64,000 nt of DNA from Fimicolochytrium jonesii (lineage: Eukaryota), in contig NW_026515694.1 of NCBI RefSeq assembly GCF_025526975.1, forward strand, positions 1-64,000, written 5' to 3'. The notes below the pieces were generated by a model that was not told the origin of the DNA, made no database searches, and was given only the letters and a program-made list of their open reading frames with translations. A program made the translations under genes and the position numbers. Positions within the stretch are counted from its first letter, which is position 1; each line of letters starts with the position of its first letter. Below, piece by piece: positions 1 to 36,929 of this stretch.

Positions 1-401
1 CCGCACGGATTGCCAATCCGAGAGTCTTCAATTAGAGAATATGATATGGGGCCAACTTTTCAATTAGGACGCCAACTACGGATCGGCACTATAAGAATCC
101 CAATTTGCACAAGTCCTATAACGTATATATAGCATATATGTCCCCTTTATATCAACCCCCCCCCCCTAGTGGCACCCCTGCCGCCCCCCGTACCCGCACC
201 ACCGCCCATATGACCCATCACTTGCCCTTGCACACCTAGTCCTCCCCGACTTGCCTAGGTGCGCAACACCCCTCGCCACTACATCCCTCAGAGTCAAAAA
301 TTCGAACTGTAGAACACACCCAAAAGCCAAAAAACTCGAAAATTTCTAAGTCCCTAGGGTTCCAGGCAACCCAATAATAAAACCCAACCCAGGGGGTCTT
401 G

Positions 402-519
402 TAACCCTAACCCTAACCCTAACCCTAACCCTAACCCTAACCCTAACCCTAACCCTAACCCTAACCCTAACCCTAACCCTAACCCTAACCCTAACCCTAA
501 CCCTAACCCTAACCCTAAC
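402..519 (+). repeat. Interstitial telomeric tract (TAACCC)n, about 19 units
   Basis: Perfect CCCTAA array; C-rich strand on + fits a left chromosome end. Confidence 0.98.
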
Positions 520-1069
520 GGATGACATAGGGCATGCAAATGGACATGCACTGCATGCTTTTTCCATGATTTGCTGGTTGACAAACACCCTGTCATATCC
601 ATGTATTGCAATGCAAAAAGGCATTTGCCATCCTCCACCAACAGGAGGAGCAATGGAAGAAAAGAAAGTATTTGGGCCTTAAAAGGATTTAAACATGGAG
701 CAAATTGAGAGCAAACCAAAATGAGTCATTCGCCGCCAACTAGAGAACACCCCCATATTGCCTGGAAACAAAAAGTACCAGGAGTTGATGAATACTAGAG
801 TAGATGAAGGTTCCTAGATGTTTTTGGGGATGTTTTCCGAGACATATTCCACTTTAAGCGAAATCCATCCACTCAGAGTTTCAGAAAATGCATTTTGGCA
901 ATATTTTCATAGTAAAAAATCGGAAAAACAGATTTTCCCGGGGCATTGAGTGGAAAACATGCCCCAAAATTTGAAGCACATTACAGTAAGATGCCCCTGA
1001 ACATTGCTAGCAACTTTGTTTGACACTTTTTGGATGGCCAAAAATAACCCATAACCGGGAACAGTCCTG

Positions 1070-1340
1070 TAACCCTAACCCTAACCCTAACCCTAACCCT
1101 AACCCTAACCCTAACCCTAACCCTAACCCTAACCCTAACCCTAACCCTAACCCTAACCCTAACCCTAACCCTAACCCTAACCCTAACCCTAACCCTAACC
1201 CTAACCCTAACCCTAACCCTACCCTAACCCTAACCCTAACCCTAACCCTAACCCCTAACCCTAACCCTAACCCTAACCCTAACCCTAACCCTAACCCTAA
1301 CCCTAACCCTAACCCTAACCCTAGGGTTAACCCTAACCCT
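1070..1340 (+). repeat. Interstitial telomeric tract (TAACCC)n, about 45 units, with variants and an inverted TAGGGTTA near its end
   Basis: CCCTAA array with variants near 1220 and 1250 and taaccctagggtta at ~1316-1329. Confidence 0.98.
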
Positions 1341-1485
1341 AAAAAGGATTAGTGGAAAAAAAAAGTCAGGAAAAAAACAAGGATTAGTGAAAAAAAAAAG
1401 TCGAGAAAAAAAAGGATTAGTGAAAAAAAAAAAAGGAAGAAAAAAAAAGTTAGGAAAAAAAAAGGGGAGGGTTGCAGAAAAAAAC
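1341..1485 (+). repeat. A-rich degenerate repeat (aaggattagtg + oligo-A, three copies)
   Basis: ggattagtg occurs three times, separated by A runs, directly after the telomeric tract. Confidence 0.85.
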
Positions 1486-1637
1486 TGAAGAACAGCTCCA
1501 GGTTGCCTTTGGCCAGACTTTTATAAAAGGAGAGGGCTGTTCAGATTCCCTCCCTCCAAAAGCACGCACCACCACCACGTTTCAGCACCTACGCCAATAC
1601 CAACACCAATACCATCACCAACACCAGGGCCAACACC

Positions 1638-3207
1638 ATGCCTTTCACCGCATTCACCAACAACACCCTTTCGCCGTCAAGCCTTACCTCATCCTTGTCG
1701 AACACCAGCCTTGAGGTCGAAATCTCCCAGACCTCATCCAGCATCGGCAGTTTGGATGTGGAGTTGTCCATTTCTGGTTCAAACGGCTCCAACTTTCATC
1801 ATCATAGTGATGAGGGGCGTGAGGATATCAAGTTGCCAACTTCTCGCTCAAGCTCTTCAGATGAGGAACACCATCACTCTCCTGCCCCTCAGGATGAGCA
1901 GTTTGGGGTCTTTCGCAGTACTGGCTACTTTGATGTGGACTGGATGGCCTTTACGCTCCCTACCACAAAGCTGACCACCCTCTTTGGTGCCTTCACCTTG
2001 GTTGAACTGTTTGGAGTGATGCAGCATATCAAGGACAGTGAAGCTTTCGCCGGTTGGATGCGGATCGCTAGCAGACCTTGTATCATTAGCATTCCATTCA
2101 ATCCAGAGTCAAAGGCAAGGATTCTTGAGTTACTTCACAATGAACATTCGATCATCGTGAGGGAAAGCACGGATCACTCACGATTGATTGCTGGGCGGCA
2201 AAATCTGTTGATGTCTGGATTCCAGGACATCATTGGTGCTGTGTCACCCTCTGTACGCATTGTGCAGTATGGAATGAAGCAACGCATTCGGACTTTGCCA
2301 GCTTATTCCTTTGATCAGGAAGTGAGCAACCATCCCAATGCTGCACTGAACACATGGGACATTGGTCAGACGTTGAACACTCATGGGGTCATTCCTTTGG
2401 TTCGCTACAATGGACGTGGAGTTGGCGCCACCTTTCCCATGCTCACCATCCTTGGTGAGGGATTTGGGTCCACCCGCTTTGACATTGCGGGTCACGCCAA
2501 TGTTCGGGTTACTTGCTACCCAAAGCTTGTTCATGCGCTCAAAGCCTACTCTTCGACTTTGTCTTCGCGAATGCCCCAAACCAAGTCCAGCCTTGGTGAT
2601 CGCAGTGAGACACTGAGAGGTTTACGTCAATGGCTCAACAGTCACCCGCTCCACATTACTGGCATGCGAGTTGAAGTGCGAGTTCAGTGCGCCAGGTTGG
2701 AATCAGCGGAACAGATGGTTTTGAATCTCCATTTGGACCAGATCGAGACCATTTTCCAGCACATGGGCGCAAACTCCTTGAAGCTTGTGCCGGTGGAAGA
2801 GTACTACAGTCTCATCAATGGCATCATGGACGCTGCCACCAGAGTTCTATTCAGAGGAGATCGCAATAGACAGACTACTGTGACAGACTGTCAGCGCTTC
2901 CGAGATGTTCTCAACTTCTTTTGGTTTCAATCCCGGATGGTTCAAAGGCATTGCACCCGTCATTGATCCTGCTCGTGCTTGGTGGGGTCATGGGGATGGG
3001 GAAGTGCCTGATGCTGCTCCCATTGGCAATATCCGTGAACTCTTCCATCAGCATCGTGATCAGCTTCAATGTCCCAACTGTGGAGGCTCAGCTTTTCATA
3101 GCATTGGCGGTCAGCATCGTTTCCGTCTCCGCTGCGCCAGGTACCCTGAGTGCCGTACGACTTTTGGACAGAACCAAGTCCGTGACATGCTTGCGGAAGT
3201 CCTTTAG
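1638..3207 (+). CDS. Unknown intronless protein (~520 aa if joined) with C-terminal Cys4 Zn ribbon; single frameshift near 2920
   Basis: 442-aa ORF 1638-2966 overlaps ORF 2905-3207; removing one T from the T-run at ~2919 joins DVLNFF to GFNPGWFKG. C-terminus CPNCGG...CARYPEC. TATAAAA at ~1522 and AATAAA at ~3283. Confidence 0.7.
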
Positions 3208-4244
3208 TACTGTTGAATGTCGTTGATAACTTTACACCAAAACCCTTTTCTGAATGTGCGCTTTTCCAATGTACTCTAAATCAATAAATGCAATACTACT
3301 TTCCACCATTTTAAATGTTCCATGACAGAGACAGTTTGGCTGAATTTAATAAGTGATCTGGGAAATCTCTAACCCCAACCCTCTCACTCTGCGTACCCTG
3401 CAAGCAAGCCCAGGTCACGTGCTCTAACCTGCATGGACAAACTGTAGAACACTGCTTTAACCGGAAAATGTTCAACAGTTTTGGTAAATACATTCCGCAA
3501 GGGTCCTACAAACAGTCTACGATGCACAGCGGAATCACAAAATAGTTTACTGGAGAACACAGCCAAACCCCTTTGCCTGCACATACGTACTCGTGTCTTT
3601 TGTTAGGAGGATCTTGGGGGTCACTACTTGAGAATTGAAAAGGGGCCCTGTTCTTCAGCCAAAAGCAAGGTTACACAAGATTTGCTACCACATCAGCTAT
3701 GCAAACCATAGGCTACAATCAACTTTCATTAAGTGCCCTACACTGGATAGTCAGCCAGATGTTGAGATATCACCACATTTTCCAACTTTTTACCCCCCGT
3801 CGCGTGAAAATTTCGTTTTTCTAAGTTTCTGAAGCCGTTTCCGCACGGATTGCCAATCCGAGAGTACTTCAATTAGAGAATATGATATGGGGCCAACTTT
3901 TCAATTAGGACGCCAACTCCGGATCGGCACTATAAGAATCCCAATTTGCACAAGTCCTATAACGTATATATAACATATATGTCCCCTTTATATCAACCCC
4001 CCCCCCCCTATTGGCACCCCTGCTGCCGCCCCGTACCCGCACCACCGCCCATATGACCCATCACTTGCCCTTGCACACCTAGTCCTCCCCGACTTGCTTA
4101 GGTGCCCAACACCCCCCGCAACTACATCCCTCAGAGTCAAAAATTCGAACTGTAGAACACACCCAAAAGCCAGAAAACCCGAAAATTTCTAAGTCCCTAG
4201 GGTTCCAGGCAACCCAATAATAAAACCCAACCCAGGGGGTCTTG

Positions 4245-4300
4245 TAACCCTAACCCTGTCCCAGGGGGTCTTGTAACCCTAACCCTAACCCTAACCCTAA
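4245..4300 (+). repeat. Short innermost telomeric tracts with local duplication; boundary of the subtelomeric array
   Basis: cccagggggtcttgtaaccctaaccct occurs twice (4231, 4260); unique sequence follows. Confidence 0.9.
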
Positions 4301-5617: not shown

Positions 5618-6654
5618 ATGAGCCGCGCATCTTCTCGTTCATCTGGAAACAGGGTACTGAACTGAACTGAACCTCTTGTCGTTTCGGCTGTCCTCTCTGA
5701 CATTGTACTGTTTCTTTACATGCAAGTCGTCTGTCTTTCCAAGACACGTCAAGGCCCGCGATGGGAATAACTGCCTGATTACCGGGGAGTCTGTGGGCAT
5801 TGATGCCGCCCATATTTTTCCTGTAGAATACGCAGGAACCGTACGTGTCGCCTTTCCATGAAGGGTAATATCAGACTGCAACTCTATAATCACTTTGCTC
5901 TCATAGGCCACCGCTGCGAAGGGGTTCGCTCTCTCCATCCAGGGGCATGACGATGTGCGGAACGGGCTGACCTTAGACAAACAATGGCATACGCTATTCG
6001 ACGCAAATATGTGGTGTCTGAGGTATGATGCGGAGGTATGTAACAAAAGGAAGAAAACTATCATACTATACAGCCTGCCCCTCTCCATACTAAATTTGAC
6101 ATACCTGCTAGGGTTGGCCGTTCGTCCACGTCCTCATACCAGATACACGATTAATGCCGTTTAACGGCCAACGACTCCGGCTAGATGCTGGCGACAGGAG
6201 TAACTGGCCGGCCCGGGACGTAGTCGAATGGCGTGCACGTATAGCCGATGCCTTCTCCTCCGCATGGACGGGTCTACCTAGACCAAGTCCAAGGTGGTGG
6301 GATGGATACGATCCATCAAGCGGTGCCGGCGGCGGCGAGGCTGAGTTCGGACAAGGTGGTGATGGGGCCAGGGATGTGGGTGCGCATGGCGGTCCGGGGT
6401 TTCGACGTAATGTGGGTTTGGGAAGAGGGAGCGGGGGTGGGGCGGGGCCGATGGAGGAAGACATTGATATCGCGGGGGAGGGGGGATATGACAACGACGA
6501 CATCGACACACCAGGAGAACACGAGGAGGCTTGTATCGACACATTGGTCGGTGGCACATTCCTGCACAAAGGTGGGGAAATCTTCGGCGCAACCATACCC
6601 AACTACTATGCCCCGCAAGGAGGCACAAGCCCAAGAGCCATCACCCGACCCTGA
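5618..6654 (+). CDS. Fungal-type HNH endonuclease domain protein (HNH_2-like), spliced
   Basis: Exons encode VKARDGNNCLITG...DAAHIFP and RNGLTLDKQWHTLFDANMW; short introns; TATA-like element at ~5355. Confidence 0.8.
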
Positions 6655-8145: not shown

Positions 8146-10289
8146 TCAGATACTGCCACACTCGGCTTGCGGGGAAGGCGATGCAATCGTACCTGATTCT
8201 CCATGAGAAACCAGTGCAGTCGTCATGAGGATGGAACTCATATAGATCTGGACCAAATACCGTTCTCTAGTGCCGAAGAACGCCCCAAACGCAATCGCAG
8301 ACTCCACGGCGGAGAAAGTCATTGCATAAGGCCCTCGCAGCCCCGTAAGCGTCCCTCTTGACAGGATGAAGTTGACATGCAGCAAAAGCACGCTGGTGAC
8401 GGAAGCTCCAAGCGCAGCGAGATCCCCACCTTCTGCACGATGATTGATCCACCGCCTCCACGCGTTGACCACCATCCACGCCAATCCAAGCTCCAAGCTC
8501 CCACCGAGCAAGATACAGCTGATCTGCTCCCGTTTCGGATGCTTGGGCCCAAACGCGGCCAACTGTTTGACCCCGGCCGCTAAAATGCACCCGACCGGTA
8601 CCGTCACACAGAGATGGAGGAACCATACCGTGACCGTACGCGTTAGATAATACTCCCCACAGGCCGCGATCACGCTAGAGACAGCGGTGGATAAGAAGAG
8701 AAACTGCTGTTGTCGCTGGGAAACATCTGAGCTGAACGTGATGTACTTGACTTCCCACTCGGCCGCTGGAAATCTTTGCGCGTAGAAATGCAATATGATC
8801 CGTTTGGTGCTCAACAACCCAGCTCGGACGGTCTCCTGTATCCACTTCCACCTCGTTGGAGAGTCTTCTTGTTCGTTGCTCCGCCCGTGATTGCTCCTCC
8901 CAGCCCGAAAAGTGTCCACGACAAAGATATACCTCCAACGAGAACCCTCAAAGAGGGACCCCTGAGCGCCATCTTCGAAATCTTCGTCTGGTGCCAGGTT
9001 CTTCCCACCCTCCCCTTCCTTCAAATTTTCACCATCCTCCACAATGTGAGCACCGCTTTGCTTGCGTAACATTTCCGTTCGAAGGACTGCGACTCGTTTC
9101 GCTTGCGCGGCGTTGCCAGTGCCCAGCTTCTCCAGAATTTTCCTTTGCTTGTTCTGATATAGGAGCGCAAAGTCCTCTTTCTCCTGTATTGCGCGCCTGT
9201 GGAGAAAATAATTCTTTAGCATGACGCAGAGTAGCAGTCCCTTTCCATAAAACGGACTCACCTGCGATCGTCATTCAGCAACGTAACAATCACCGTAAAA
9301 ATCAGCTGCACTGCCACCTGATACCCGCCGCCCACAAAGTCGTCTGTATGCCATGCCGCCGTCAGAAGCGTCCGTACGCCCAATATATACACCACTACCA
9401 CCACCGCCTTATGGATCCACTCGCAATTCACCGCCCGCAGAATGATCCACGTAACGGCGGCTTCCCCGGGCCCAGCCAGCGGCTTCAGCCGCGGGTTGGA
9501 TTGGTAGGCGATGAAGGGAACGTGGATGAAGTAGGTGCTAAACGTTATAAAGAGGAAGAGGGAGACGGCGCTGAGACGGGAGACCCATGGGGGTTTCAGG
9601 AGGATGGCGACGAGGAAAGCTAAGGCGCCGGTTAAGTAGTTTATCTGCATATATGAAAGTGACAAAGCAGTTAGGAATGCGTTGGGTCCTGCGCGGCCGA
9701 CGGTAGCAGTTCTTAATGGGGGCGTCTGCGGAGAAGTACTTACCACATACGGGCCATGGACGATAAAAGCTTTATCCCTCAGCGGCAGGTTCGGGTTAAA
9801 TTCCGCCGATGCTCGCTGCCAAAACACCGCTAGCATAACCCCCCCAACGGTGTAATTGACCAGGTTGCGCCGCCGCCGCTGGCTTGCTACGTGGTGCTCA
9901 TATCTGGCCCCCGTGGATTTGGAGAAGGAAAATACCGCCGTTAGATTCGCCCCACTTCTATTGAAGCCCCCCTTTGCGATTGGGAGCAGCCCACGCGGCG
10001 TACCTCCCCTCCATCTCGGCGTCCCGGAATCGAGCCGTCCATCGCGACAGGGAATATGTAGCCGTCGCCGCGTTTTCCATATCAGTACAGCAAACGCCGT
10101 TTCCCGACGGCGGTCGTTGTCCAGGGATACTCGGAACCGAAAACGCTCGTTATTCGAAATGTCCTTGAACTCTTTACGGACTTTCCCTCTAAGCCACATA
10201 TCATGCGATTGACTTTTAGGCGCACCTCCTGGCTCAGAAGCCGGATCCCAAGAATAGGCACATCTATTTGCCTTCATCCCGCAAATCAA
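8146..10289 (-). CDS. Unknown multi-pass membrane protein (two long ORFs, probably joined by an intron near 9260)
   Basis: 343-aa and 371-aa ORFs with many hydrophobic segments; GTGAGT donor on minus strand at ~9261; true start uncertain. Confidence 0.5.
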
Positions 10290-11111: not shown

Positions 11112-11135
11112 GTCCTTTACACGCGTGTAAAGGAC
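11112..11135. repeat. Perfect 24-bp palindrome upstream of Fanzor ORF
   Basis: gtcctttacacg|cgtgtaaaggac is its own reverse complement. Confidence 0.95.
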
Positions 11136-11137
11136 AA

Positions 11138-11192
11138 TCCTCACTCTACTCTTCCTCACTCTACTCTTCCTCACTCTACTCTTCCTCACTCT
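11138..11192 (+). repeat. 15-bp tandem repeat (tcctcactctactct), about 3.5 copies
   Basis: Seen directly. Confidence 0.9.
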
Positions 11193-11458
11193 TCGCACAC
11201 CTCACGCTCTTGATTGCACCTCATCATGGCCCCCAATTACATACCAAACCTCCTTCCCAACCCCCTTCCTTCCCAACGCAATTGTGGGCAGTAAGCATCC
11301 CCGTTTTCACCTTCAACCGCTACCAGGTAACAACCGCAATTCCTCACCGCTCTCCGCAATCATTACCACAGCACTGACGCGAGTTCTTTGACACACAGCT
11401 ATCACAGCAATCAACTGCAACACCTCTCTCGACTGACTTAAGGCACAGCACAGTCATC

Positions 11459-14417
11459 ATGTCATCACACCAAGCGCTCCAGGGGTACCTGTGGTGTGGC
11501 ATATTTACTGGAGCAACCACACCACGGCGGAAGAGGAGGAAGGTTGCTCCGGTTACCCCGCGGTTGCCCATATGTCTGCCAACTGTACAGACGCCATTGC
11601 AGCCCCCGCGATTCGAGTTCCCACCGTCTGTCCAACGCCACTTGCCCCAAGCAATTGCAGACATGGTTAGCGAGAGTTCCGGCAAGAGTTCCGGCAATGA
11701 AGACGGGCAGCAGCAGCAGCAACAGCAGCGAGGGCTTTCACCCGTGGACAGGGGTCTGCAGCGCCAGCGCCCGTTGAACCTCCCCGCTCCCATCCCGTTC
11801 CTTTTTCCCAGCACACCGGGTGGACCCCTGGTGTATGAACCCCCGCCACCACCACCCGCTCAACGACCCCGCTCGCAAACACACGCCAGCACCAAGGTTT
11901 CGCTTCACCGAATCATCCATAATCAAGCTCAAAGGGAGCAAAGGGAGCGCCTGACAACGTTCATCGGCAATGTTCACGTCCTTGCGCGCCACACAACCTT
12001 CTTTCTCAAGTACTACCTTGGTGAGTTTTTGAGGTACACTGTATATTTCCCATAATATTTCCCATAAACCAATGTCCTGACTACTACGTCTGCCCACCAC
12101 AGCTGATCATCCTCTGCACGATTTCCCGGACATCACGGATAAGCACATCAGCATGATATTTGAGCTGCTAAACAATCCAGGCTACAACGGCAATCCGGTC
12201 ATCACGCAAGAGTTGCGTCCATGGGTTCAAGACTACTGTAATGTTCACGGATTCGCCCCCATCCGCATGCAATATTGCCAACAGACTGCAGCGTACACAG
12301 CTACGAGCATCTTCACAAACCTCAAAGTCAACGTACAAGAGCATTTCATTCAAATGCTTCTGCGCTATGTCAATGAAAGGCTTGGTTTGAAGCAAGTCGT
12401 ACTGCATCTCCGTAGAGCTGGAGTCAACCGAGCGCAGCGGCGACACTATTATCAGCGTGTCCGTCAGTTTAAAAAGTATGTGACGTTTGAAGAGTTTCCA
12501 ACCGAAGAAGAGTTTGCGCCCCTCACACGACTTGAGCGGACCGTCCTCGACGAGTTATGGGCTCTGTTTCCTCCCCAGGATGAACCGCTTGCGTACAGCC
12601 TTGCGGTGGATGCAATGCCATATTTAGGTGAGTTAGTATATTTCCCCCCCCCCCCCCCCCCCGGCTTCCTCTTTTGTCTAATCATGCTCCGTACCTGCCT
12701 CATCACAAGTGCCTACTGTGAGCTCTCATGTCTCTATGAGCGCTGTGGAATGCGGCTGTTTTCAGCGATCCCGCTACGCAAATCTCGAATCCAGTCATCT
12801 GTTAGGATCGACACAAAGGTCCTAGCCACTCATATCCTGGGCTTGAGCCACCATCGCATGGGGAAACTCACCGATCAACGCAAGCGGGAGCTGTGGGGGC
12901 AGTTTCTCAATGTGAATGTAAGTTAAGTCTGTATCCTTCTGCGCTTATTTCACTCACCTCACCTCGCTGAATGACGGATTGCAGGACAAGGTCTTCAAGG
13001 ATCGAAAGAAGCTTGGTCTCAAATTTGATGGCTCAATCAGCACAAACGAGTATTCCGCTACCATCCACTTCAAGAAGCCAGGGCTCAAGTACGGCCATCG
13101 CGCCGGGAAGCGCAGCAAAGCCCAAATGCAGGAAGAAGTCAAGCAGCTGTATTTTGAGCACCACATCGCCGAACTACGGGAGGCTCCAAACATCGTCTGC
13201 ATTGATCCGGGCAAGCGTGACCTCTTGTTCTGTCGAGACATCAAGAAGGAGCGGCCATTTCGGTACGTTTCAGTTGATTACTACTGCCCTGCTGTCCCTC
13301 CTCCCCCCCCCCCCCGTCTCCGCCCGCCAGCCACCACGCACCTCACCCGCCAGCCCCCCGTCTCCGCCCGCCAGCCCCCCGTCTCCGCTACCCCCCCCCC
13401 CCCGTCTCCGCCCGCCAGCCCCTTGTCTCCGCCCCCCAGCCCCCCGTCTCCGCCCACCATCCCCCCGTCTCCGCTGCCGCTCCCACCGCCCCTATCCCCA
13501 CCATCCCCATTGCGGCGACATTCCGTTGCAGCGTTCTCACAATGCACCACCCCATACCAGATACACATCCAATCAACGGGCGGTCGAGACAAAGTCGCGG
13601 TACTTTCAAAGAGACATGAGAGAGCGAAAGATCAATGTTGGCATCGCCGAGATGGAATCACATATTCCGTCGCACAAGAGCATGAAGATCGAGGCGTTCT
13701 CAGCGTTCATTGTGGATCACATACATGCAGGTATGATGTATTATGCATTGTCTTCAAATTCCATAATACATGGGCTGACATCCATATCCCAGATCCCGCC
13801 CTGGATGAGTTTTACCGGGATGAGATTCACGTCGCTCGCAGATTCAAGGCTCTCTCACTGCGGCAAAAGTCTGAGAGCAAGCTCATTAAGAACATGCGAC
13901 GCCGGTATGGAAAGCATTTTTCGGTTGTCTTGGGTGATTGGAGCGATGCTGGGAAAACAATGCGCTTTCAGGAGTCATCAAAGACCAAGGGGTGAGTGAC
14001 CATGATTGGTGGTATCTACTATGTATTCTATTATGCTAACTCATCATGGAAATTAGATTCCGCACACTCTTTGCGAGAAACAGCATTCCATGCTACTTGC
14101 TAGATGAGTATCGAACGTCCTCCGTGTGCCCAGACTGCCACGGGCGTGTGAAGAAAAACATCCGACGGCGGCTGTCATCTCGGCCATGGCAAGCTAGAAA
14201 GGGAAGAATGGAATACGTCCATGGATTGGTGGGTTGCCCCAACCCCGAATGTATCAACCAAGACTGGACGCCATTTGAGATTGCTGGAAGACGACCACTA
14301 CGGATGAAAGTGCACAATCGGGACGTCCTAAGCACCAAGAATTTCCTCTCGATTGTGCGTTCGGTGGTGTTTGGCAATGGCCGCAGACCAGACGCATTCT
14401 CCTGTAACCGTAGGTAG
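11459..14417 (+). CDS. Fanzor1 (eukaryotic TnpB/Cas12-related RNA-guided RuvC nuclease), 7 exons, ~768 aa
   Basis: Introns 12021-12102, ~12632-12709, 12918-12984, 13263-13560, 13731-13792 and 13992-14056 restore one frame. Motifs: IPLRK...RIDT, FDGSISTN, RuvC-I CIDPGKRDLL, RYTSNQR, LGDWS, RuvC-II LDEYRTS, Zn finger CPDC...CPNPEC, RuvC-III HNRDVLS, terminal RPDAF. Start codon and intron-2 donor are uncertain. Confidence 0.93.
13295..13510 (+). repeat. C-rich minisatellite (ccccccgtctccgcccgccag-like) within Fanzor intron 4
   Basis: About seven degenerate copies of gtctccgc within C runs. Confidence 0.85.
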
Positions 14418-14520
14418 TCTAGATTTCACCCCATACCATTTTCCGTGGTGGTTATCTGCCATCCACATCATTGTACCTCTGCCTGAGGCGTCGCCGATGA
14501 AGGCAACTTGTACACTTGAC
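14380..14520 (+). ncRNA. Candidate Fanzor omegaRNA (scaffold plus guide); boundaries approximate
   Basis: Expected position at the ORF 3' end; hairpin gtggtgg-ttatctg-cca(t)ccac at 14445-14466; second stem tgtac..tgcct/aggca..gtaca at 14472-14514. Confidence 0.5.
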
Positions 14521-15083
14521 AGGATTGAACGCGCTGCATTTTGCGGAGGGCATTGCCGAAATTGGCTATTCGCTCACCGTTTTGTCATCGGCCTTGGCAA
14601 GCTAGCTCTTTTCGGGACTCCACGCTGGACTCCACGGGCACCCGCAAATGGGGAAGTCGTGCGCTGCTCCGTATCAAATCAACAACCGCACGGTTATCAA
14701 CTCTCTCCATTAGCGGTACAGGCTCGGCTGCCACTCTGCATGCTTTGAAGCGCAGGTGGGCGCAAGCCCATAGACTTGATGGCCAATAGCTCCACTGACT
14801 GGGATGACCCGAGAAGCGGAGAGGCTGAAAGGCACCTTGGAACGATAGTCACCATCTTCGCTCTCGAGTGAAGTGCAGTTTTTGCCCCTCGCAGGGGGTC
14901 TTCCTGCGAGGAACTAGCCAATGGACTTAACCTGCAAATAGCCTACGGTAAACGAAATCTGATTTGGGAAGCTATTATGGTTCTATTTTGACTAGTGACA
15001 TGATACACATAAAAGGCTATCATAGGGACTAGACTATGAATCGTAACTCCTCCACAACGCCAGTGTTGGATTGGCAGCCATGC

Positions 15084-15908
15084 CTACGTCCTTTTGATTC
15101 GTGATTCCATTACGTCGGCGGTTGCAAATCTCTTACGATCCGGGACGGAATGGGTTCCGCCTAACCGATCGAGGAAACTGAAGATGGGCGCGAAATTCTT
15201 CTTCAACGTTAAATGGTGTTCCTCATGCTCTTGGGCAACATGACGCGCTGAAGGTAGAGCTTTGACAAGCCATTGTAAAGGGCTCATCAAGTAGAGCAGA
15301 GGATGGTCGAGGTATCCGGTGTGCGCCGTATTGAATTCCATGACGAGGGTCAGCACAGGGAGGAGTAGAGTCCAGAGGTTGAGTGTTGGGAAGAACTTGA
15401 GGACCAGGATGACCCAGATCGAGATGCCGGGCGATACGGCCAATATGTTCTCAATATATTCGGCTTTTGCCGTTAGGAAGAGATGGACGGGAACATCCTC
15501 GTGATGGCGTTTGTGGATGTGCACATAAAGGAAGGGGACTTGGTGGAAGGTCCGATGAACGCAGTAGTAGATGACATCAAAGCAGATGTATATCCCGATG
15601 ACCGATACTGCGATGTCCAGTGGCCGAAGCGCGAGATCCAAGCGGCCACTCAATACTTCAGGCGACGCGATGTGCACGAGCAGGGTCATCGGCGTTATCG
15701 AAAGACAAGTGAGATCTTTGAAGTTCTCGGAGAGGTGTCGACGACTGTTTGTCATCGGGCCGAGAGGCGTGCGACGCTTCAGAATCCTCGCGTGGAAGTA
15801 GAGGAAGTTGGTCCACTGCTCAAGGACGAGCATATGCGCTACGGCCCAAGCGGCGAGAAGGACCGACAAAGCGACCCCGACAACAATGGAAACGGAGATG
15901 TCTGTCAT
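15084..15908 (-). CDS. Fatty-acid hydroxylase/sterol desaturase family protein, intronless
   Basis: His boxes HRTFH, HKRHH, AHTGY, HEEHH followed by NFAPIFSFLDRLGGT. Confidence 0.9.
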   Translation of the reverse strand: MTDISVSIVVGVALSVLLAAWAVAHMLVLEQWTNFLYFHARILKRRTPLGPMTNSRRHLSENFKDLTCLSITPMTLLVHIASPEVLSGRLDLALRPLDIAVSVIGIYICFDVIYYCVHRTFHQVPFLYVHIHKRHHEDVPVHLFLTAKAEYIENILAVSPGISIWVILVLKFFPTLNLWTLLLPVLTLVMEFNTAHTGYLDHPLLYLMSPLQWLVKALPSARHVAQEHEEHHLTLKKNFAPIFSFLDRLGGTHSVPDRKRFATADVMESRIKRT

Positions 15909-16548: not shown

Positions 16549-17924
16549 ATGCTCCTCAATGAAGTGCGCTTCTTGGATATCACCACCGTTCGATATAGCC
16601 CTGTCGACAGAGTTCTTATCTTACTGCTCTTGCTGGTCAATTTGGGGGCATGCCTTGGAAACGCCTTTTTAATCTACTTGTTCTGTACTGACAAGAAGCT
16701 TCGCAACCCCGCGGTAAGGATTGGGGAAAGTTCCCCGAGGATTTGTGCTCGACGGCTAACGATTTGTATTCTCTTAGACCTACCTCGTGCTCAATCTTGC
16801 CATCATCGATTTGTGTCTTGGCTCCGTCAACGCATTCTGTTTCTTTGCTCCAAATTTGATTACCGGCAAGTTTTACCTTGGCTTTGTCGGCGGACAGATC
16901 AATGGATACGCTGAAGTGATGTTTTGTGTGAGTGAGAATAAGAAACGTGACCTTTCCCAGTATAAAGATGAAGCATTCCTGATTTCGTTTTAAACATCCT
17001 CTAGGGGGCTTCACTCATAAATTTGGGCCTTCTCGGGTTTGACCGCTGGCTTGTAATCGTGCGAAACTACCGTATCAGTACCAAGCAAGCTTTTTATCTA
17101 GCAGCCCTCAGCTGGGTATGGGGCATCATTCTCGCGTCCGTTCCGTTCTGGTTCGGCAACCATCATATTCTTGAGTACAGTCGCCTGTACTTTGCGGGAG
17201 ATTGGTCCAATCAAAGTCCTGGCGGTCTCGTCATGACCATAGGCTGCCTGTTTACCGTGTCAATGCCTCTGCTCTGGTTCACATATTCCTATGCACAAAT
17301 CCTGCATGTTGTGAGGCAGAACAACCGGCAGTGGGCTCAGCTACAGCAACACGGACGGGGGAAGGACAGGAAACTGAGTGTCAAACCCGATCAACGAAGT
17401 CTGAAAGATCTCAAAGCTGCGCAACTAGAGGCTGCGATCGCGAAACGGTCGGCAATCGTCGTGGGTGTCTTCGTCATAAAGTACGTAAGGTGCAGAACAT
17501 CATCGTTCTTGTGGCCGGCGTGAGCTTATGAATCGAACCATCGTGTAGCTGGCTCTTCTACCTTGTCAATTTTCTGGCGGAACTCACAACTGGGCGTCAA
17601 TTCAATGGGACGCTCGACACATTCGCAGTTTTCGGTGCGCATCTCAATTCCTTCTTCAACCCGGTACTATTCATTCTATTGGATCCCCGATTCAAGGCCA
17701 GGGCTCGCCATGCACTCGGTATTAGACGTCATGGTGGTAATAGACGTCATGGTGGTATCCAACGTCAGGATGCGGACGACATCAGCAAAGAGAGTGGAGC
17801 CACGACATCCACGCACCGATCCGCGAACTTGTCTTGGGTGCCTCCGGCATCCCGAACCTCTATAGCTTCTACAGCGGTAAAGTCAACCCCCTCCCCCGTC
17901 ATGGAGGCGTGCACAAACGTGTAG
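16549..17924 (+). CDS. Class A (rhodopsin/opsin-like) 7TM GPCR, spliced
   Basis: TM1 GN, KLRNP, TM2 LNLAIID, TM3 FDRWLVIV, TM4 W, ECL2 E...DW, TM6 W, TM7 NPVLF, DPRFK; three short introns. Confidence 0.88.
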
Positions 17925-18946: not shown

Positions 18947-21900
18947 ATGTTCAAGCTGGTGCTCGTGTGGACTTTGATCCTCCTGCTTGCGTGGCCTGGC
19001 ACTTCAGCTCAGGGCATTAAGATCGGCGTGAGGTAACTATCGTGACTTTTTCATATCTCTGGATGCCCTCTGACCCGCCTTCTATTTCAATGACCTCCGC
19101 TCTATCCAGTCTATCCTTCCAAGGCGACGACGCCGAGTGGTCCGTCGCAGTGACAGAGGTCATGAACCTGCGGCTGCAGCAGCTGCTCGACCCCGCCGCA
19201 GACTACCCCGTAGTCGCCGATCTGCGTGTCCCGGGAGCGATCCAAATTGTGACCAACGACGCGTCGAGGCCGCATCAGCCATCGGTTCCGCCATCCACCT
19301 CGCTCAGACCCTCAACGCAAACGCGCTGATCGGCGTGGGCTACTCGGAGCCGACGACGGCGTTCGCGTCCGCGGCTCGGACGTTCGGTCTGCCCGTCTGC
19401 GATGGCGCGTCCACCAGCCCGAGCCTCTCCGCCAAGGGCGCGTATCCCAACTTCTTCCGGTTCCTCCCCAACGACAACATGGCCGGGGAACCGATCGTCG
19501 GGCTTGTGCACGCGCAGGGGTATCGGCAGGTCGGGGTCGTGTACAGTGTCGACAGCTACGGCGTCGGGCTCTCGAACTCCGTGCGCGACTATGCCGAGCG
19601 GTATGGCGTCGCGTTGCTCACGAGCCAGACGTATATTCCCGGCACGGGCGATTTCAAACCCGTCATGGATCAGATCGAGGCGTCCGGTGCGACGATCATA
19701 CTGTTCCTGGGCACCCATAACGATCTGCTGAGCATCCTTGCGGAAGCCAGCACGCGCGGGATGGTCGGCGCGGGGTATCAATGGATCACGGGTGACGATG
19801 CGCTCTACACCGATGTGAACAAAATCACTCCGGTGGAGAGGCACCTGCTGCACGGGGTATGGGCGTCGTACCCCAAGGAAGGCACGGGGGTGGCATGGGA
19901 CGCCTTCCTTACCGACTGGCGCAAAACGCACGATTTCGATCCATATTCGTATTCGCTTTTCTTCGCGTCCTGCATCGAATCGTTCGTCTGGTCCTACGAC
20001 CACGCCCTCCGCCACGGCAATGGCACGACCCTCGCCGCCCTCGCATCCAACACCGTCCGGCTCGCAACACCGCACGACGTGAGCTTCCCTGACCGGCTGG
20101 GAGTGACGGGTCCGTTGGCGTTGGACGGGAACGGGGATCGCTGTTTTACTTTGACATGCACGACGGGGATAACGGCACTTTTGCCGCGTTTAGGAATTGG
20201 ACGGGGATTGATGTCAAGGAGTTTCATCAGTACACGACTCCTGTGTACTTCTCCGGAGCGGTGGAGAAGCCTGCCGACGCGCTGGAAATCTACAAGGAGT
20301 ACAGAACCGTAGCGTGGGGTTCGGGACTCGGGGTGTTTGTCGTCATCGTTTGTGCGCTGAGCGTTCTCGCTGTTGGCGCCGTCGCGGCATATGTGCTTGC
20401 AAATCAGCGAAGCAGTGTCTTCAAGGTAACAGCGGGATGTCTCCAACCTTTATGCATCTTCTTGCTACTTTTACTTGCCTCCTGTCACGGAACAACGAAC
20501 ACACTCCTTAGCCATTTTTTTTCTCCCTCCATCTGCAGCCGCTCAGCCCCTCCTTCCTCCTGACCACCCTCCTCGGAACCGCCATCGCATCCTTCTACCC
20601 GCTCACCCTCCTCGGCACGCCCACCATCACATCCTGCACAGCCTCCGTGTGGATCCTCCCCGCCGCGCTCGGCTTGGTGCTGGGCAGCCTGCTCGTCAAG
20701 ACGTACCGGTTGTTTCGCATTTTCCGCAGTCAGGGCTTTGCGACCAAGAGTATGCAGAACTCGAGGATGTTTGTGCTGCTCGCGGTTTGTTTTGCGGTTT
20801 ATATGGTATGTGCGTGCGCGCACACTTCTGCAAGGGATAGAACCGGGGGTGGGGGGGGGGGGGGGGGGGGAATCCGTTTCTGATGGCATTTCGTACGATT
20901 GTAGATGCTGGCTGTGGTATGGACTGCTGTGGATGCGCCGAAACCGCAGTGGCACTTGCAACAGAAAGTGAGCCGCACGCACCACATCTTCGAGTACTAC
21001 TGTCGTTCGGACTCGGAAACGCTTCAGTGGGTTTTCCTAGGTGAGTGTGAAAGAAATCGGGTGCCATGTTTTCAACGATCTTTCTCCCTGTGTTGTCCGT
21101 GATGCTGACGAACGTTTCGTCGTTTCTGTCGCAGGCCTCACTTTTGCATACACCATTGGCTTGCTCATCTACGGCGGGTTCTTGTGCTGGGTCAGCCGAA
21201 ATTTGCCAAAGAAGTTCAGGTGAGCTTTTTGGGAATCTGTCCCTTCTTTTCTCAAGTGTCCAACTCATCATCCGTGTGTATGTTAGGGAAAGCAAACCCA
21301 TCGGCACCCTCCTCTACACGTACATCGGCATCTTCATCGCGCTCATCGTCATCCTCTTCGTCCTCGACCTGAATACCAGCGGGTTGTCCGCCCTCAAGAC
21401 GATCGCCACCGGTGGGGTGGTGGGGTGCACGTTGGGCGTTCTGTTTATCAAGAACTGTTACCTGGCGTGGGCCGAGAAGCAGAAGGAGAAGTCTGCGCCG
21501 CTGCTTGTTTCGGGCGTGGGGGGGACGTCGGAGATAAGGGGGAAGGGCAAGGGCAAGGAGACCTCGAGCGTGGGTGGTGGTGGTGATCAGGGTAACAGTA
21601 ACTTGGCTGTGAAAGCTGGGTCTCGGCATGCGGTGAGTGAGAATGAACATCACTTTGACAGCTGAACCTGTTTGTCCCCGGGATATGCTCATCGCCATGT
21701 TATTCCCCGTTCCTTCTGGTATGCTGCAGACCAAGGTCGGTGCGGTGTTTGTAGCCTCCAAACAATCGTTCATGACGGTTTGGCTCCCGAAACAGTTGAT
21801 CCTTTATGGCGATAAAGGATTCGCATTGATTGTCAACAGCAGCGATAGTGATCCGACATTGAACAGTAACATGCCCGTAAATGGGGGAATCTTTGTTCAT

Positions 21901-34382: not shown

Positions 34383-36929
34383 ATGGGCTGCTGCGTATCT
34401 TCAAATGCAAGAGTGCAACCCAACAAGAACTCGGCGCAGGAAACAGCGGCGTCAGTTGCGCCGCGGTCAAAGGGCACAGTCGTGGACGGTGAGTGCTCGC
34501 AACACAACCATGTATATTATTGTGAAATTGACTTGGGCTTGTAGCGAACCCTGAGAGTGAACCATCTCCGGCCTACGCCGAACGGCCGTCGCTCCCTCTC
34601 CCAGAGATCAAGTCACATTACAACAATAAAGAAAATGCAGCGTCAGGCTTAGCCTCGCCCTTGGGCTCCTTAGATGCGCTTGGTCCTCCATCCGGTCGGG
34701 TCGATCCAACGGAAGGACGAAGCCCGTTGCACCCGAAACCAATTCAGTTCATCAAGACGACATTGGCCGGTCCCAGCCGAACATTTGAAGTGACTTCGGA
34801 GGCAACCGAGCTTCTGCAGGGCATTAACAAAAATGTATCGGTGATAGGAATTGCAGGAACTTACCGGCACGGGAAGTCTTTCCTGATGAACCAACTTTTC
34901 GGCACCCAATCTGGTTTTGAGCTGGGACCTCTTGCCGAAGGGAAAACCCGGGGGTCCTATTTATGGGCTTTCGAGCAAGCGGACAAAGATGAGGTCTTGC
35001 TGCTGCTTGACTTCGAAGGCCTCAAAGACACGGAGAACAACACGGCTGCGTATGACCTGCAGCTGTTCAGTCTTGCGGTTCTCTTGAGCTCATGTCTGAT
35101 TTACAATCAGATTGGCAGTGTTCTAGATGCCGCTCAGATACAAGATCTCAGGTGTGATGCCTTGAAACGATGTCATCAAACGCAAAAATCACTCAAACTC
35201 TTTGACTCAGCTTCATTATAGACTTGACCAAGCACCTTCGAACTAAGAGCGGAGAAGAGACCGGTGCTGATTTTGATAAACACTTCCCGAGCCTGATCTG
35301 GGTGATGAGAGACAGTGTGTTGGAGCACGTATCCATCGACGGGAAGGAGCAGACAGACGATGAGTATTTCGCTAAACAGATGAAAGAGGAGCCAGGGTTC
35401 AGTCAAGATGTCGACAACAGAAACCGTGTACGCCGACTCATCAAAACGGCGTTCAAGCGACACTATTTTCGACGTCTACCCCGTCCCATACATAAGGAAA
35501 AGGCGCTTCGCTACATTGATAAGGCTCGGCCGGAACAAATTCGTAGCCTATGGTATACTTTAATGGATTCTCTGCGGGAGTTGGTCTTCTCCGTCACGGG
35601 ACCAAAAGAACTCTTTTCTTCCGCTACCGACACAGTCACAAAAGTGAACGGGCCTGGTAGGTTTTCGGATTTCGGGCTTGGTTTGTTTGTCCTGCGGCAA
35701 AGATCATTGGCGGAAACTAAATTGCAAGTATCCAGCATTCCTCCTCATGACCGAGTCGTATATAACAGCTTTCAATCGAGGGGACGTCCCGAATATCAGT
35801 AACACATGGGATGTTTTGTGCGAAAACACCCGCAACAAAGCACAGGCGGAAGCCCTTTTGAAATACACCGAGCTCATGAGCAGCCATGTCCTTCCAAAAT
35901 TCCCCGTGGATATGGACACACTTTTCGAGAATCACTCGGCGTTCCAGGAGCAAGCCATCGGCCGATTTTGTGAAGTCATAATTGGAACTGACATAGAGAC
36001 ACATGTGAATAAGCTAAAGGTATATAAAACACTGCGGCACTTGCACGGGGGTGAGAAAATCTAATTCGAACGGGGATGCAGGGTTTGCTCGCGCAGTACG
36101 ACGAGGAAGGGGTGCTAATCAGCGGCGAATACCATCGATATGTGGAGATGAACCGAAGCAAGAGCCGCGAGCACTGCGATGTCATCCAGGCACGCATATG
36201 TGCCGCCCTGGAAACGAAGATTTCGAAGAAGGCTTTTGCTTCCTACGCGAAATATGAAGCGGCTGTAGAAGCAGCTCTCAAAGAGTATGACACTCTGAGC
36301 GTCGGGCCGATGGCCATGACAGTGAGAGAGACTCTTCAGCAGACCTTGGCCAGAGGCTCCGAGATGCAGGCTCTGCACTTCAAGCTTGATGAGGCCGGAA
36401 AAGTTGCCGCGCGGGAGGTGATGGAGCGTCAACGCCTGGAGGCCAATTTCATGAAAATGCGTCTGGATAATGATCAGCGGGAAAAAGGCCACCGCGATCA
36501 GCTACGGCAGCATATTGCTGCCAATGCGGCCCTGGAGGAAAGGCTTGTGCGAGAACACAGGTTGTGGGTGCAAAAGCACCAGGAAGACCTCGATGAGCGC
36601 GAACGTAAGTGGAAGAAAGCTCTAGAAAACCGGGACGCTCAGGCAGAAATGCATCGGACTCAGGTATTGTATGCACCATGCCTACCGTGATTACGCGACT
36701 TCCGCGCTCACGCACAATTTGACAGTTTGAAGATCTGAAACGGGAGATGGAGAGAATGAATCACATTAGGCAAATGGAATTTGAGGAGATTAGGGCTCGG
36801 CCTGTCCCGCAGATAACTTTTGAGCAAAGCTTGCCTCGGTGGGGCGTTTGCCAAGCTAGACTCGGGCGAGGATCAACACGGCCAGGAGAGCCCTGTGGCA
36901 GGGGAAGACCATGTCAGTATCATGGATAG
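34383..36929 (+). CDS. Guanylate-binding protein (GBP/atlastin-like GTPase) with MGCC N-terminus, helical/coiled-coil region and C-terminal Cys/His motif
   Basis: Exon 1 34383-34488 splices in frame to 34545; G1 IAGTYRHGKSFLMN, KTRG, G3 LLDFEGL, LLSSCLIYN, G4 WVMRD. Confidence 0.92.

What the first reader, a model, noticed from the sequence alone, without database searches (positions are those of the whole stretch)
11459..14417. Intact, six-intron Fanzor1 RNA-guided nuclease gene with no adjacent transposase
Seen: four unrelated-looking ORFs join via six GT-AG introns into one ~768-aa frame with all three RuvC acidic residues (D at 13204 in IDPG, E at 14106 in DEYRTS, D at 14322 in NRD), a CxxC...CxxxxC Zn finger and a basic NLS-like PRRKRRK. 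Known: these motifs mark the TnpB/Fanzor family, eukaryotic relatives of Cas12 that use an omegaRNA, so the family itself is described. Inference: this is a probably active and possibly uncharacterised programmable nuclease, in a non-autonomous or domesticated element about 7 kb inside the subtelomeric repeats.
Basis: partly seen in the sequence, partly recalled or inferred. Interest (0 to 1): 0.9.

Follow-up and report, generated by a model that had tools for sequence, protein, structure and literature searches.

The report
Damaged copy of multicopy Fanzor1 transposon
This is one of at least 52 near-identical copies of a known kind of RNA-guided DNA-cutting gene (Fanzor1) in a chytrid fungus, and this copy is likely inactive because one splice site and two highly conserved residues are mutated, although it still carries a predicted guide RNA.

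Summary
The gene is a real Fanzor1: 44% identical to SpuFz1, and a sister copy folds like it. The host is Fimicolochytrium jonesii. This locus's annotated 288-aa protein is already listed in Yoon 2023 Table S2.

'Intact' is not confirmed. Five introns match sister gene models. Intron 2's acceptor reads AA where sisters splice (13 of 13 models); the next AG frameshifts to a stop at codon 401. The copy also has G454E (Gly in 133 of 139 homologues) and R764C (Arg in 98 of 115). Like 15 of 17 sister models, it has Gly where SpuFz1 has its TAM-anchoring Arg96.

'Domesticated' is not supported: 52 gene models on 31 contigs average 92% identity. An omegaRNA-like two-stem fold lies at 14438-14514. No terminal inverted repeat or transposase was found, and no RNA data were available.

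Verdict: a decayed member of a young, intron-rich, non-autonomous Fanzor1 family; a new member of a known kind.

The parts
11459..12020 (+). Exon 1 (aa 1-187): ~125-aa P/Q-rich extension with NLS-like PRRKRRK (11522-11542), then the start of WED/REC
   Evidence: the extension has pLDDT <50 for aa 1-119 in sister P0051 and is absent from the SpuFz1 and Gaertneriomyces models
12021..12102 (+). Intron 1, 82 nt, GTGAGT...CTGAC...CAG
   Evidence: 13 of 14 spanning sister models join here (one has an extra Y), 1 reads into the intron end
12103..12627 (+). Exon 2 (REC); codon 214 (12180-12182) is Gly where SpuFz1 has the TAM-groove Arg96
12628..12708 (+). Intron 2 as used by sister copies: donor GTGAGT, branch-like CTAAT at 12678, acceptor dinucleotide 12707-12708 reads AA instead of AG; contains a 19-C run (12644-12662)
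12709..12917 (+). Exon 3 (end of REC helix, WED); a TAG at 12823 is reached if the next AG (12709) is used
12918..12984 (+). Intron 3, 67 nt, GTAAGT...CAG
   Evidence: 22 of 23 spanning sister models join at the same length
12985..13262 (+). Exon 4: WED TDG/TNG motif mutated to TNE (G454E, codon 13048-13050); RuvC-I Asp506 at 13204 (IDPG)
13263..13560 (+). Intron 4, 298 nt, with a C-rich 21-nt tandem repeat (13298-13474)
   Evidence: 31 of 31 spanning sister models join here; the intron end is also seen in sister model P0038
13561..13730 (+). Exon 5 (RuvC)
13731..13792 (+). Intron 5, 62 nt
   Evidence: 45 of 47 spanning sister models join here, 2 read through part or all of the same intron
13793..13991 (+). 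Exon 6 (RuvC, GDWS at 13933)
13992..14056 (+). Intron 6, 65 nt, GTGAGT...CTAAC...TAG
   Evidence: 46 of 46 spanning sister models join here
14057..14417 (+). Exon 7: alternative RuvC Glu665 (14106), C4 zinc finger, RuvC-III Asp737 (14322), R764C, stop
14438..14514 (+). Predicted omegaRNA scaffold: unpaired 5' UUUUCC, stem-loop 1, 5-nt linker, stem 2 closing on the last base
   Evidence: MFE -24.8 kcal/mol, z -2.62, 3 of 200 shuffles as good; 1 of 58 TTTTCC-led 77-mers in the window has this layout; U5, C6, C7, U16, U18, C19 match positions named for SpuFz1 in Saito 2023 section 10
14515..14529 (+). Predicted 15-nt guide from the right flank (boundary inferred; it could lie up to 5 nt further right)
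   Evidence: inference from the SpuFz1 layout and the folds
11112..11135 (.). 24-bp perfect palindrome about 55 nt below a TATAAA (11053); possible left-end or 5' UTR feature, role unknown
   Evidence: the only perfect palindrome of 16 bp or more in the 64-kb window; hairpin z -5.8; TATAAA position

Best explanation
This is one copy of a young, multicopy, six-intron Fanzor1 gene family close to SpuFz1, and it is likely a decayed passenger of a non-autonomous DNA transposon that would make little or no active nuclease. Shown: Fanzor1 sequence and fold, the D-E-D triad, copy number, the same introns in sister models, and the lesions in this copy. Inferred mechanism for intact copies, by analogy with SpuFz1/TnpB: the spliced, NLS-bearing protein binds an omegaRNA made from the element's right end plus about 15 nt of flank. 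It cuts TAM-plus-guide sites, which exist only at the empty allele after excision, so homologous repair copies the element back. A transposase acts in trans, and copying goes through DNA because the introns are kept. Inferred for this copy: the strong intron-2 donor splices to the next AG and gives a frameshifted, probably NMD-degraded message. Any rescued protein carries G454E and R764C. The copy can at most supply an omegaRNA to protein made by sister copies, like SpuFz1's ghost loci.
For: SpuFz1: 44% identity over aa 162-763, E 1e-162; PDB and Foldseek hits for sister P0051; triad maps to SpuFz1 D383/E541/D606. Copies: 52 of 72 F. jonesii models cover aa 650-675 at 80% identity or more, on 31 contigs; mean pairwise identity 92% over aa 600-700 in 43 models; the copies form one clade with terminal branches of 0.02-0.07 (quick tree). 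Lesions: acceptor AA; junction length invariant in 131 of 131 spanning homologues and inside helix 350-365 of the model; G454E, Gly in 133 of 139 rows and Glu in 0; R764C, Arg in 98 of 115 rows and Cys in 0. The public model of this locus covers only the last 288 aa. omegaRNA-like fold. Ghost omegaRNAs work with SpuFz1, and no transposase lies within Spu-1 elements (Saito 2023).
Against: No transcript or small-RNA data, so splicing and omegaRNA expression are untested. No terminal inverted repeat or target-site duplication was found, so the transposon superfamily and left end are unknown and the empty-site logic is not shown here. Sister copies were seen only as automated protein models, never as DNA. 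Retention of intron 2 keeps the frame open (794 aa), and a cryptic donor exists. A single-base assembly error at 12708 cannot be excluded. The omegaRNA fold is only moderately better than shuffles, and longer windows were not significant (z -1.55, -0.35, -0.35).
Confidence: 0.72

Rival explanations
1. One reading: this copy is intact and active, using the 12632 donor (768 aa), retaining intron 2 (794 aa), or having a true AG that the assembly misreports.
For: Both alternative frames are open. Triad, zinc finger, NLS-like motif and omegaRNA-like fold are all present. Many SpuFz1 RNA-contact residues are kept, e.g. R387, R414, Q482, W570, W596.
Against: The stronger donor lies 4 nt upstream. No indel at this junction in 131 of 131 homologues, and it is mid-helix. 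G454E and R764C are independent of splicing. Gly replaces the TAM-groove Arg, whose Ala mutant abolished GtFz1 cleavage (Xu 2024).
Confidence: 0.1
2. Most of the family, not only this copy, no longer cuts DNA or uses a different TAM mechanism. The protein binds omegaRNA and perhaps DNA, and copies spread as hitchhikers or act as RNA-guided binders.
For: 15 of 17 sister models have Gly and 2 have Arg at the SpuFz1 Arg96 position; among the 54 next-ranked non-F. jonesii rows, 27 of 33 non-gap rows have Arg and 3 Lys. N133 is Ala in all 6 F. jonesii rows of the alignment, and that loop is 5 aa shorter than in SpuFz1. Only 2 of 72 models are near full length with the triad.
Against: The triad is kept in most models (21 with all three residues). 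Across distant homologues this column is variable (35 of 96 non-gap rows Arg), so the alignment of this loop is uncertain. N385G is common elsewhere (40 of 82 non-gap distant rows). Fragmentary models may reflect annotation rather than broken DNA.
Confidence: 0.15
3. A domesticated, host-maintained subtelomeric gene.
For: Six introns and an NLS-like extension; no TIR or transposase found; it sits between ordinary host genes.
Against: At least 52 copies about 92% alike, many fragmentary. This copy carries damaging private changes. The nearest other-species relative is only 52% identical (Gaertneriomyces). Intron-containing Fanzors inside transposons are known (Bao and Jurka 2013; Jiang 2023).
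Confidence: 0.03

Closest known systems
SpuFz1 / SPu-1 element of Spizellomyces punctatus (Bao and Jurka 2013; Saito 2023; PDB 8GKH, 9CEU-9CEZ)
   Same: 44% identity, same fold (target TM-score 0.91-0.92 for sister P0051), D-E(alt)-D triad and zinc finger; multicopy with no transposase inside; omegaRNA-like scaffold of about 75 nt just after the stop, with 5' UCC, SL1, linker and SL2.
   Different: SPu-1 is a single ORF in 2.1 kb with 30-33-bp TIRs and TA duplications. This gene has six introns, a ~125-aa disordered extension and no detectable TIR. It has Gly for R96, Ala for N133 and Gly for N385, so the CATA TAM is probably not kept (inference).
Gaertneriomyces sp. JEL0708 HDU85_005947 (P0058)
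   Same: Nearest relative outside the species: 52% identity; sister to the F. jonesii clade with SH-aLRT 100.
   Different: 637 aa, no N-terminal extension, keeps R96 and N385. Its intron status could not be checked.
Intron-containing Fanzor1 of Chlamydomonas CRe-1/2/3 Helitron2 elements (CrFNuc)
   Same: Multi-exon Fanzor1 in non-autonomous elements (5 or 10 exons).
   Different: Those elements have Helitron2 ends (asymmetric TIRs plus hairpins). No partner for the 11112-11135 palindrome was found near the right end here (best match 4 mismatches in 12).
PpFz1 and GtFz1 (Xu 2024)
   Same: Fanzor1 fold (Foldseek E 2.9e-32 and 7.3e-20); SL1 of similar size (7 bp there, 8 bp predicted here).
   Different: About 20% and 16% identity; both keep the TAM-groove arginine.

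Membership tests
Fanzor/TnpB superfamily | Motif D-X(125,275)-[TS]-[TS]-X-X-[C4 zinc finger]-X(5,50)-RD (Bao and Jurka 2013 abstract) | tested here: met
   Regular-expression match from D506 to D737 on the sister-type splice model
Fanzor | DPG signature and alternative RuvC glutamate (Yoon 2023; Jiang 2023) | tested here: met
   IDPG at 13201-13212; E665 aligns to SpuFz1 E541
Fanzor1 | Fanzor1 fold with enlarged REC/WED and placement among Fanzor1 proteins | tested here: met
   AlphaFold2 model of sister P0051, pLDDT 84.6, pTM 0.80; the top 7 Foldseek hits are SpuFz1, PpFz1 and GtFz1; tree. The window's own spliced protein was not folded.
Fanzor1 | TDG motif in the WED domain (Yoon 2023) | tested here: not met
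   This copy reads TNE (G454E). The family meets it: 30 of 31 sister models have Gly. The failure marks a damaged copy, not another family.
Fanzor1 | omegaRNA scaffold at the right end: SL1 plus SL2, no pseudoknot, followed by a flank-derived guide | tested here: inconclusive
   Predicted layout fits, but there are no covariation or expression data; no Rfam match
Fanzor1 (active nuclease) | TAM-groove arginine (SpuFz1 R96, GtFz1 R85) | tested here: not met
   Gly214; 15 of 17 sister models Gly, 2 Arg; loop alignment not certain
Fanzor1 (active nuclease) | RNA-guided, TAM-dependent dsDNA cleavage | not testable with these tools
   needs a biochemical assay
SPu-1-type TIR element | About 30-bp terminal inverted repeats and TA duplication | tested here: not met
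   Best ungapped inverted match scored 12.5 against 10-14 in 15 shuffles. An 11-nt match (10268-10278 with 14496-14506) is reached by 54 of 2,000 random windows and sits at the 90th percentile in a gapped test.
Helitron2-type Fanzor element | 5' hairpin plus asymmetric TIR upstream of a 3' hairpin | tested here: inconclusive
   A 5' palindrome exists, but no matching 3' arm was found; the true ends are unknown
Transposable element copy | Dispersed copies with independent flanks and defined ends | tested here: inconclusive
   Dispersal shown at protein level (31 contigs), and fused models carry unrelated neighbours; ends not testable without the genome

The most novel reading that the evidence does not exclude
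An SpuFz1-type Fanzor1 lineage gained six spliceosomal introns and a disordered NLS arm, lost its terminal inverted repeats and, in most copies, the TAM-anchoring arginine, yet still expanded past 50 copies. It would be a Fanzor that spreads without the known cut-and-restore function or without a TIR transposase, working as an RNA-guided DNA binder or with a new TAM-reading loop.
Probability: 0.15. Interest if true: 0.65.

Novelty: new member of a known kind. Interest (0 to 1): 0.3.

Why it matters
As a tool candidate this copy is the wrong one. The family, though, is a natural allelic series of a close SpuFz1 relative with changed TAM-contact residues, so a full-length sister could widen the Fanzor1 TAM range. 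With over 50 copies, each with its own flank-derived guide, in a cultured chytrid, it also allows a direct test of why eukaryotic transposons keep Fanzor. It may also show how an intronless transposon gene gained six introns; gain is inferred, because SPu-1 and the metagenomic relatives around it in the tree are single ORFs.

Tried and rejected
Whole genome: none is held for this window, so copy DNA, ends and ghost elements could not be examined.

RNA: no RNA holder was listed; this is no evidence either way.

Related DNA loci: the metagenome scan gave 1 weak locus of 51 pattern matches (30% identity over 65 residues, not used); the viral scan 0 of 14; the prokaryote-genome scan 0 of 43.

Family libraries: Pfam barely sees the protein (Cas12f1-like_TNB, E 0.015, below cut-off). 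Rfam gave 0 matches.

Element ends: TIR searches were negative. No second copy or ghost lies in the 64-kb window. Sister protein models gave no usable read-through into the flanks to mark the ends.

CpG decay as the cause of the lesions: rejected; exon CpG observed/expected is 0.97, like the rest of the window.

The upstream ORFs as cargo: rejected; the search of longer proteins returned one OPT-domain host model on a contig of the same length.

A recurring partner transposase in fused sister models: not found; one tyrosine-recombinase fusion (P0084), one CUE and one CHZ fusion, none alike.

The careful tree did not finish; the quick tree was used. It held 47 rows picked from the hits, without true outgroups. 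Earlier scan findings: nothing. The protein atlas gave no answer for the telomeric ORF.

Literature: searches for Fanzor plus Fimicolochytrium, Fimicolochytrium alone and recent Fanzor screens showed no study of this family. Supplements of Saito 2023 (9 files searched, 1 picture PDF not searchable) and Jiang 2023 had no Fimicolochytrium row. The Jiang files did not list Spizellomyces either, so that blank says little. bioRxiv supplements and subscription journals were not visible.

Full report
1. Observation. Five introns have good GT-AG ends: 12021-12102, 12918-12984, 13263-13560, 13731-13792 and 13992-14056. Intron 2 does not. Its best donor (12628, AG|GTGAGT) and the first AG after the branch-like CTAAT at 12678 (AG at 12709) give a frameshift with a TAG at codon 401. 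The next two AGs are also out of frame, and the first in-frame AG, 57 nt on, would delete 19 residues.

2. Source and copy number. The last exon found 14 proteins among 104 candidates, 13 of them from Fimicolochytrium jonesii. P0001 (KAI8817495.1, 288 aa) is 100% identical to aa 480-767 of the model. The upstream gene matches an OPT-domain model on a contig of the same length, 427,701 bp. From I collected 72 F. jonesii models on 34 contigs (contigs told apart by length); three cluster members not from this species and one ENA protein were left out of the counts. Of the 72, 52 cover aa 650-675 at 80% identity or more, on 31 contigs; 21 have all three acidic residues; only 2 (P0051, P0052) are near full length with the triad. 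Mean pairwise identity over aa 600-700 is 92% among 43 models. These are automated models, so fragments may partly be annotation artefacts.

3. The splice lesion. All 13 models spanning junction 2 read YLGAYCEL, which needs an acceptor at 12707-12708. The window reads AA there. Model P0011 reads through the intron end as CLITGAYC, against CLITSAYC in the window, the one-base difference expected. Among the 145 aligned homologues, all 131 that span this stretch have the same length, and it lies within helix 350-365 of the AlphaFold2 model of P0051. The other junctions agree with sister models in 13 of 14, 22 of 23, 31 of 31, 45 of 47 and 46 of 46 cases. Sister models that read into introns 1, 2, 4 and 5 show these introns are shared by the family, so copies spread through DNA rather than spliced RNA (inference).

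4. Other lesions. Twenty positions differ from the family majority. Two hit conserved sites. G454E lies in the Fanzor1 TDG motif (Yoon 2023 passage); Gly stands in 133 of 139 non-gap rows and Glu in none. R764C has Arg in 98 of 115 rows and Cys in none. It aligns to the C-terminal Arg that Xu 2024 places in the groove of RuvC-bound DNA (their R631; their numbering appears one lower than Saito's, my inference from W569/W570). In addition, SpuFz1 Arg96 aligns to Gly214. Xu 2024 reports that this Arg is conserved in three Fanzor1 structures and that R85A abolished GtFz1 cleavage. 15 of 17 sister models have Gly and 2 have Arg. Against over-reading this: the loop is 5 residues shorter than in SpuFz1, and the column is variable among distant homologues.

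5. Family. Sister P0051 matches SpuFz1 (8GKH, E 4.6e-149), PpFz1 (2.4e-37) and GtFz1 (2.1e-4) by sequence. Its model (pLDDT 84.6, aa 1-119 disordered) matches SpuFz1 structures at E 1.9e-53 with target TM-score 0.92. The window model is 44% identical to SpuFz1 and 52% to a Gaertneriomyces protein. In a quick tree of 47 rows, the 8 F. jonesii rows form one clade (SH-aLRT 100) with short tips, sister to Gaertneriomyces (100), inside a 29-row group (97) with SpuFz1, Rhizophlyctis, Phlyctochytrium and metagenomic ORFs. SPu-1 is a single ORF, and metagenomic relatives of 608-630 aa lie on contigs of 2.0-2.4 kb, so intron gain in this lineage is the simpler reading. It is inferred, not shown. Introns and NLSs in Fanzors are already described (Jiang 2023; Bao and Jurka 2013).

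6. omegaRNA and ends. Twenty bases after the stop, 14438-14514 folds into an unpaired UUUUCC leader, an 8-bp stem-loop, a 5-nt linker and a second stem closing on the last base (z -2.62; 3 of 200 shuffles as good). This is the layout described for SpuFz1 (Saito 2023 section 10): 6 of the 9 nucleotides named there for positions 5-22 match in register, although one other start position in 42 also scored 6. Only 1 of 58 TTTTCC-led 77-mers in the window has both stems, but that test was designed after seeing this fold. Longer windows were not better than shuffles. The guide would be about 14515-14529. Unlike SPu-1, no terminal inverted repeat was found. The element must lie between the OPT-domain gene (annotated start 10080, minus strand) and a fatty-acid hydroxylase ORF ending at 15084. 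No transposase family was hit by 86 ORFs or 9 more. The only transposase-named hit is a sub-threshold IS1595 zinc ribbon 8 kb away in a telomeric repeat unit.

7. Mechanism. Shown: family, triad, copy number, shared introns, lesions. Inferred from SpuFz1/TnpB (Saito 2023 discussion passage): intact copies would cut the empty site left by excision, guided by flank-derived omegaRNA, and be restored by homologous repair, with a transposase in trans. This copy is likely unable to supply protein but may still supply a guide (confidence 0.72). Rivals: an active copy (0.10), family-wide loss or change of cutting (0.15), a domesticated gene (0.03).

8. Novelty. Yoon 2023 Table S2 lists 33 F. jonesii rows, among them KAI8817495.1, this locus. 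The two full-length sisters I looked up (KAI8821362, KAI8822135) and KAI8824436 are not in it. The main text does not mention the species, and my searches found no study of the family. What I saw of each paper: Saito 2023, passages, section 10 and a supplement search; Bao and Jurka 2013, passages; Jiang 2023, passages and a supplement search; Yoon 2023, passages and supplement rows; Xu 2024, passages; PMC12247965, two passages (not relevant to Fanzor).

Noticed in passing
window 1-4300: A unit of about 3.84 kb sits between TAACCC arrays (1-446 repeats at 3841-4300, 94% identity). It holds a 479-codon ORF (1527-2966) with no Pfam match and, in another frame, a 107-aa ORF (2884-3207) with a weak IS1595-type zinc ribbon (E 5.7e-4, below cut-off). 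It looks like a telomere-interspersed repeated element of unknown kind.
   Followed up: partly
window 11112-11135: A 24-bp perfect palindrome, the only one of 16 bp or more in the 64-kb window, between a TATAAA (11053) and a 15-nt tandem repeat (11138-11192); unexplained.
   Followed up: partly
window 5661-6164 (+): Intron-split HNH endonuclease gene (HNH_2, E 7e-6 and 0.004) whose 3' end overlaps the end of the OPT-domain gene on the other strand.
   Followed up: partly
protein P0084 (another contig, 313,765 bp): An annotated fusion of a tyrosine-recombinase-like ORF (Phage_integrase, E 5.6e-4, below cut-off) to the middle of a Fanzor copy. It is probably a nested insertion, but it is the only mobile-element enzyme seen beside a copy.
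   Followed up: partly
window 11291-11398 (+): GT...AG segments with a CTGAC branch-like motif upstream of the start codon suggest one or two more introns in the 5' UTR.
   Followed up: no
window 17005-17523 (+) and 19074-20312 (+): A rhodopsin-family 7TM exon (E 4e-13) and an ANF-receptor ligand-binding ORF (E 5e-27).
   Followed up: no
window 34532-36690 (+): A guanylate-binding-protein (GBP) gene with N- and C-terminal domains.
   Followed up: no
proteins P0095, P0245-P0249: Phlyctochytrium arcticum also holds at least 6 closely similar Fanzor1 models of the same clade, the two placed in the tree almost identical: another very recent expansion, possibly with active copies.
   Followed up: no
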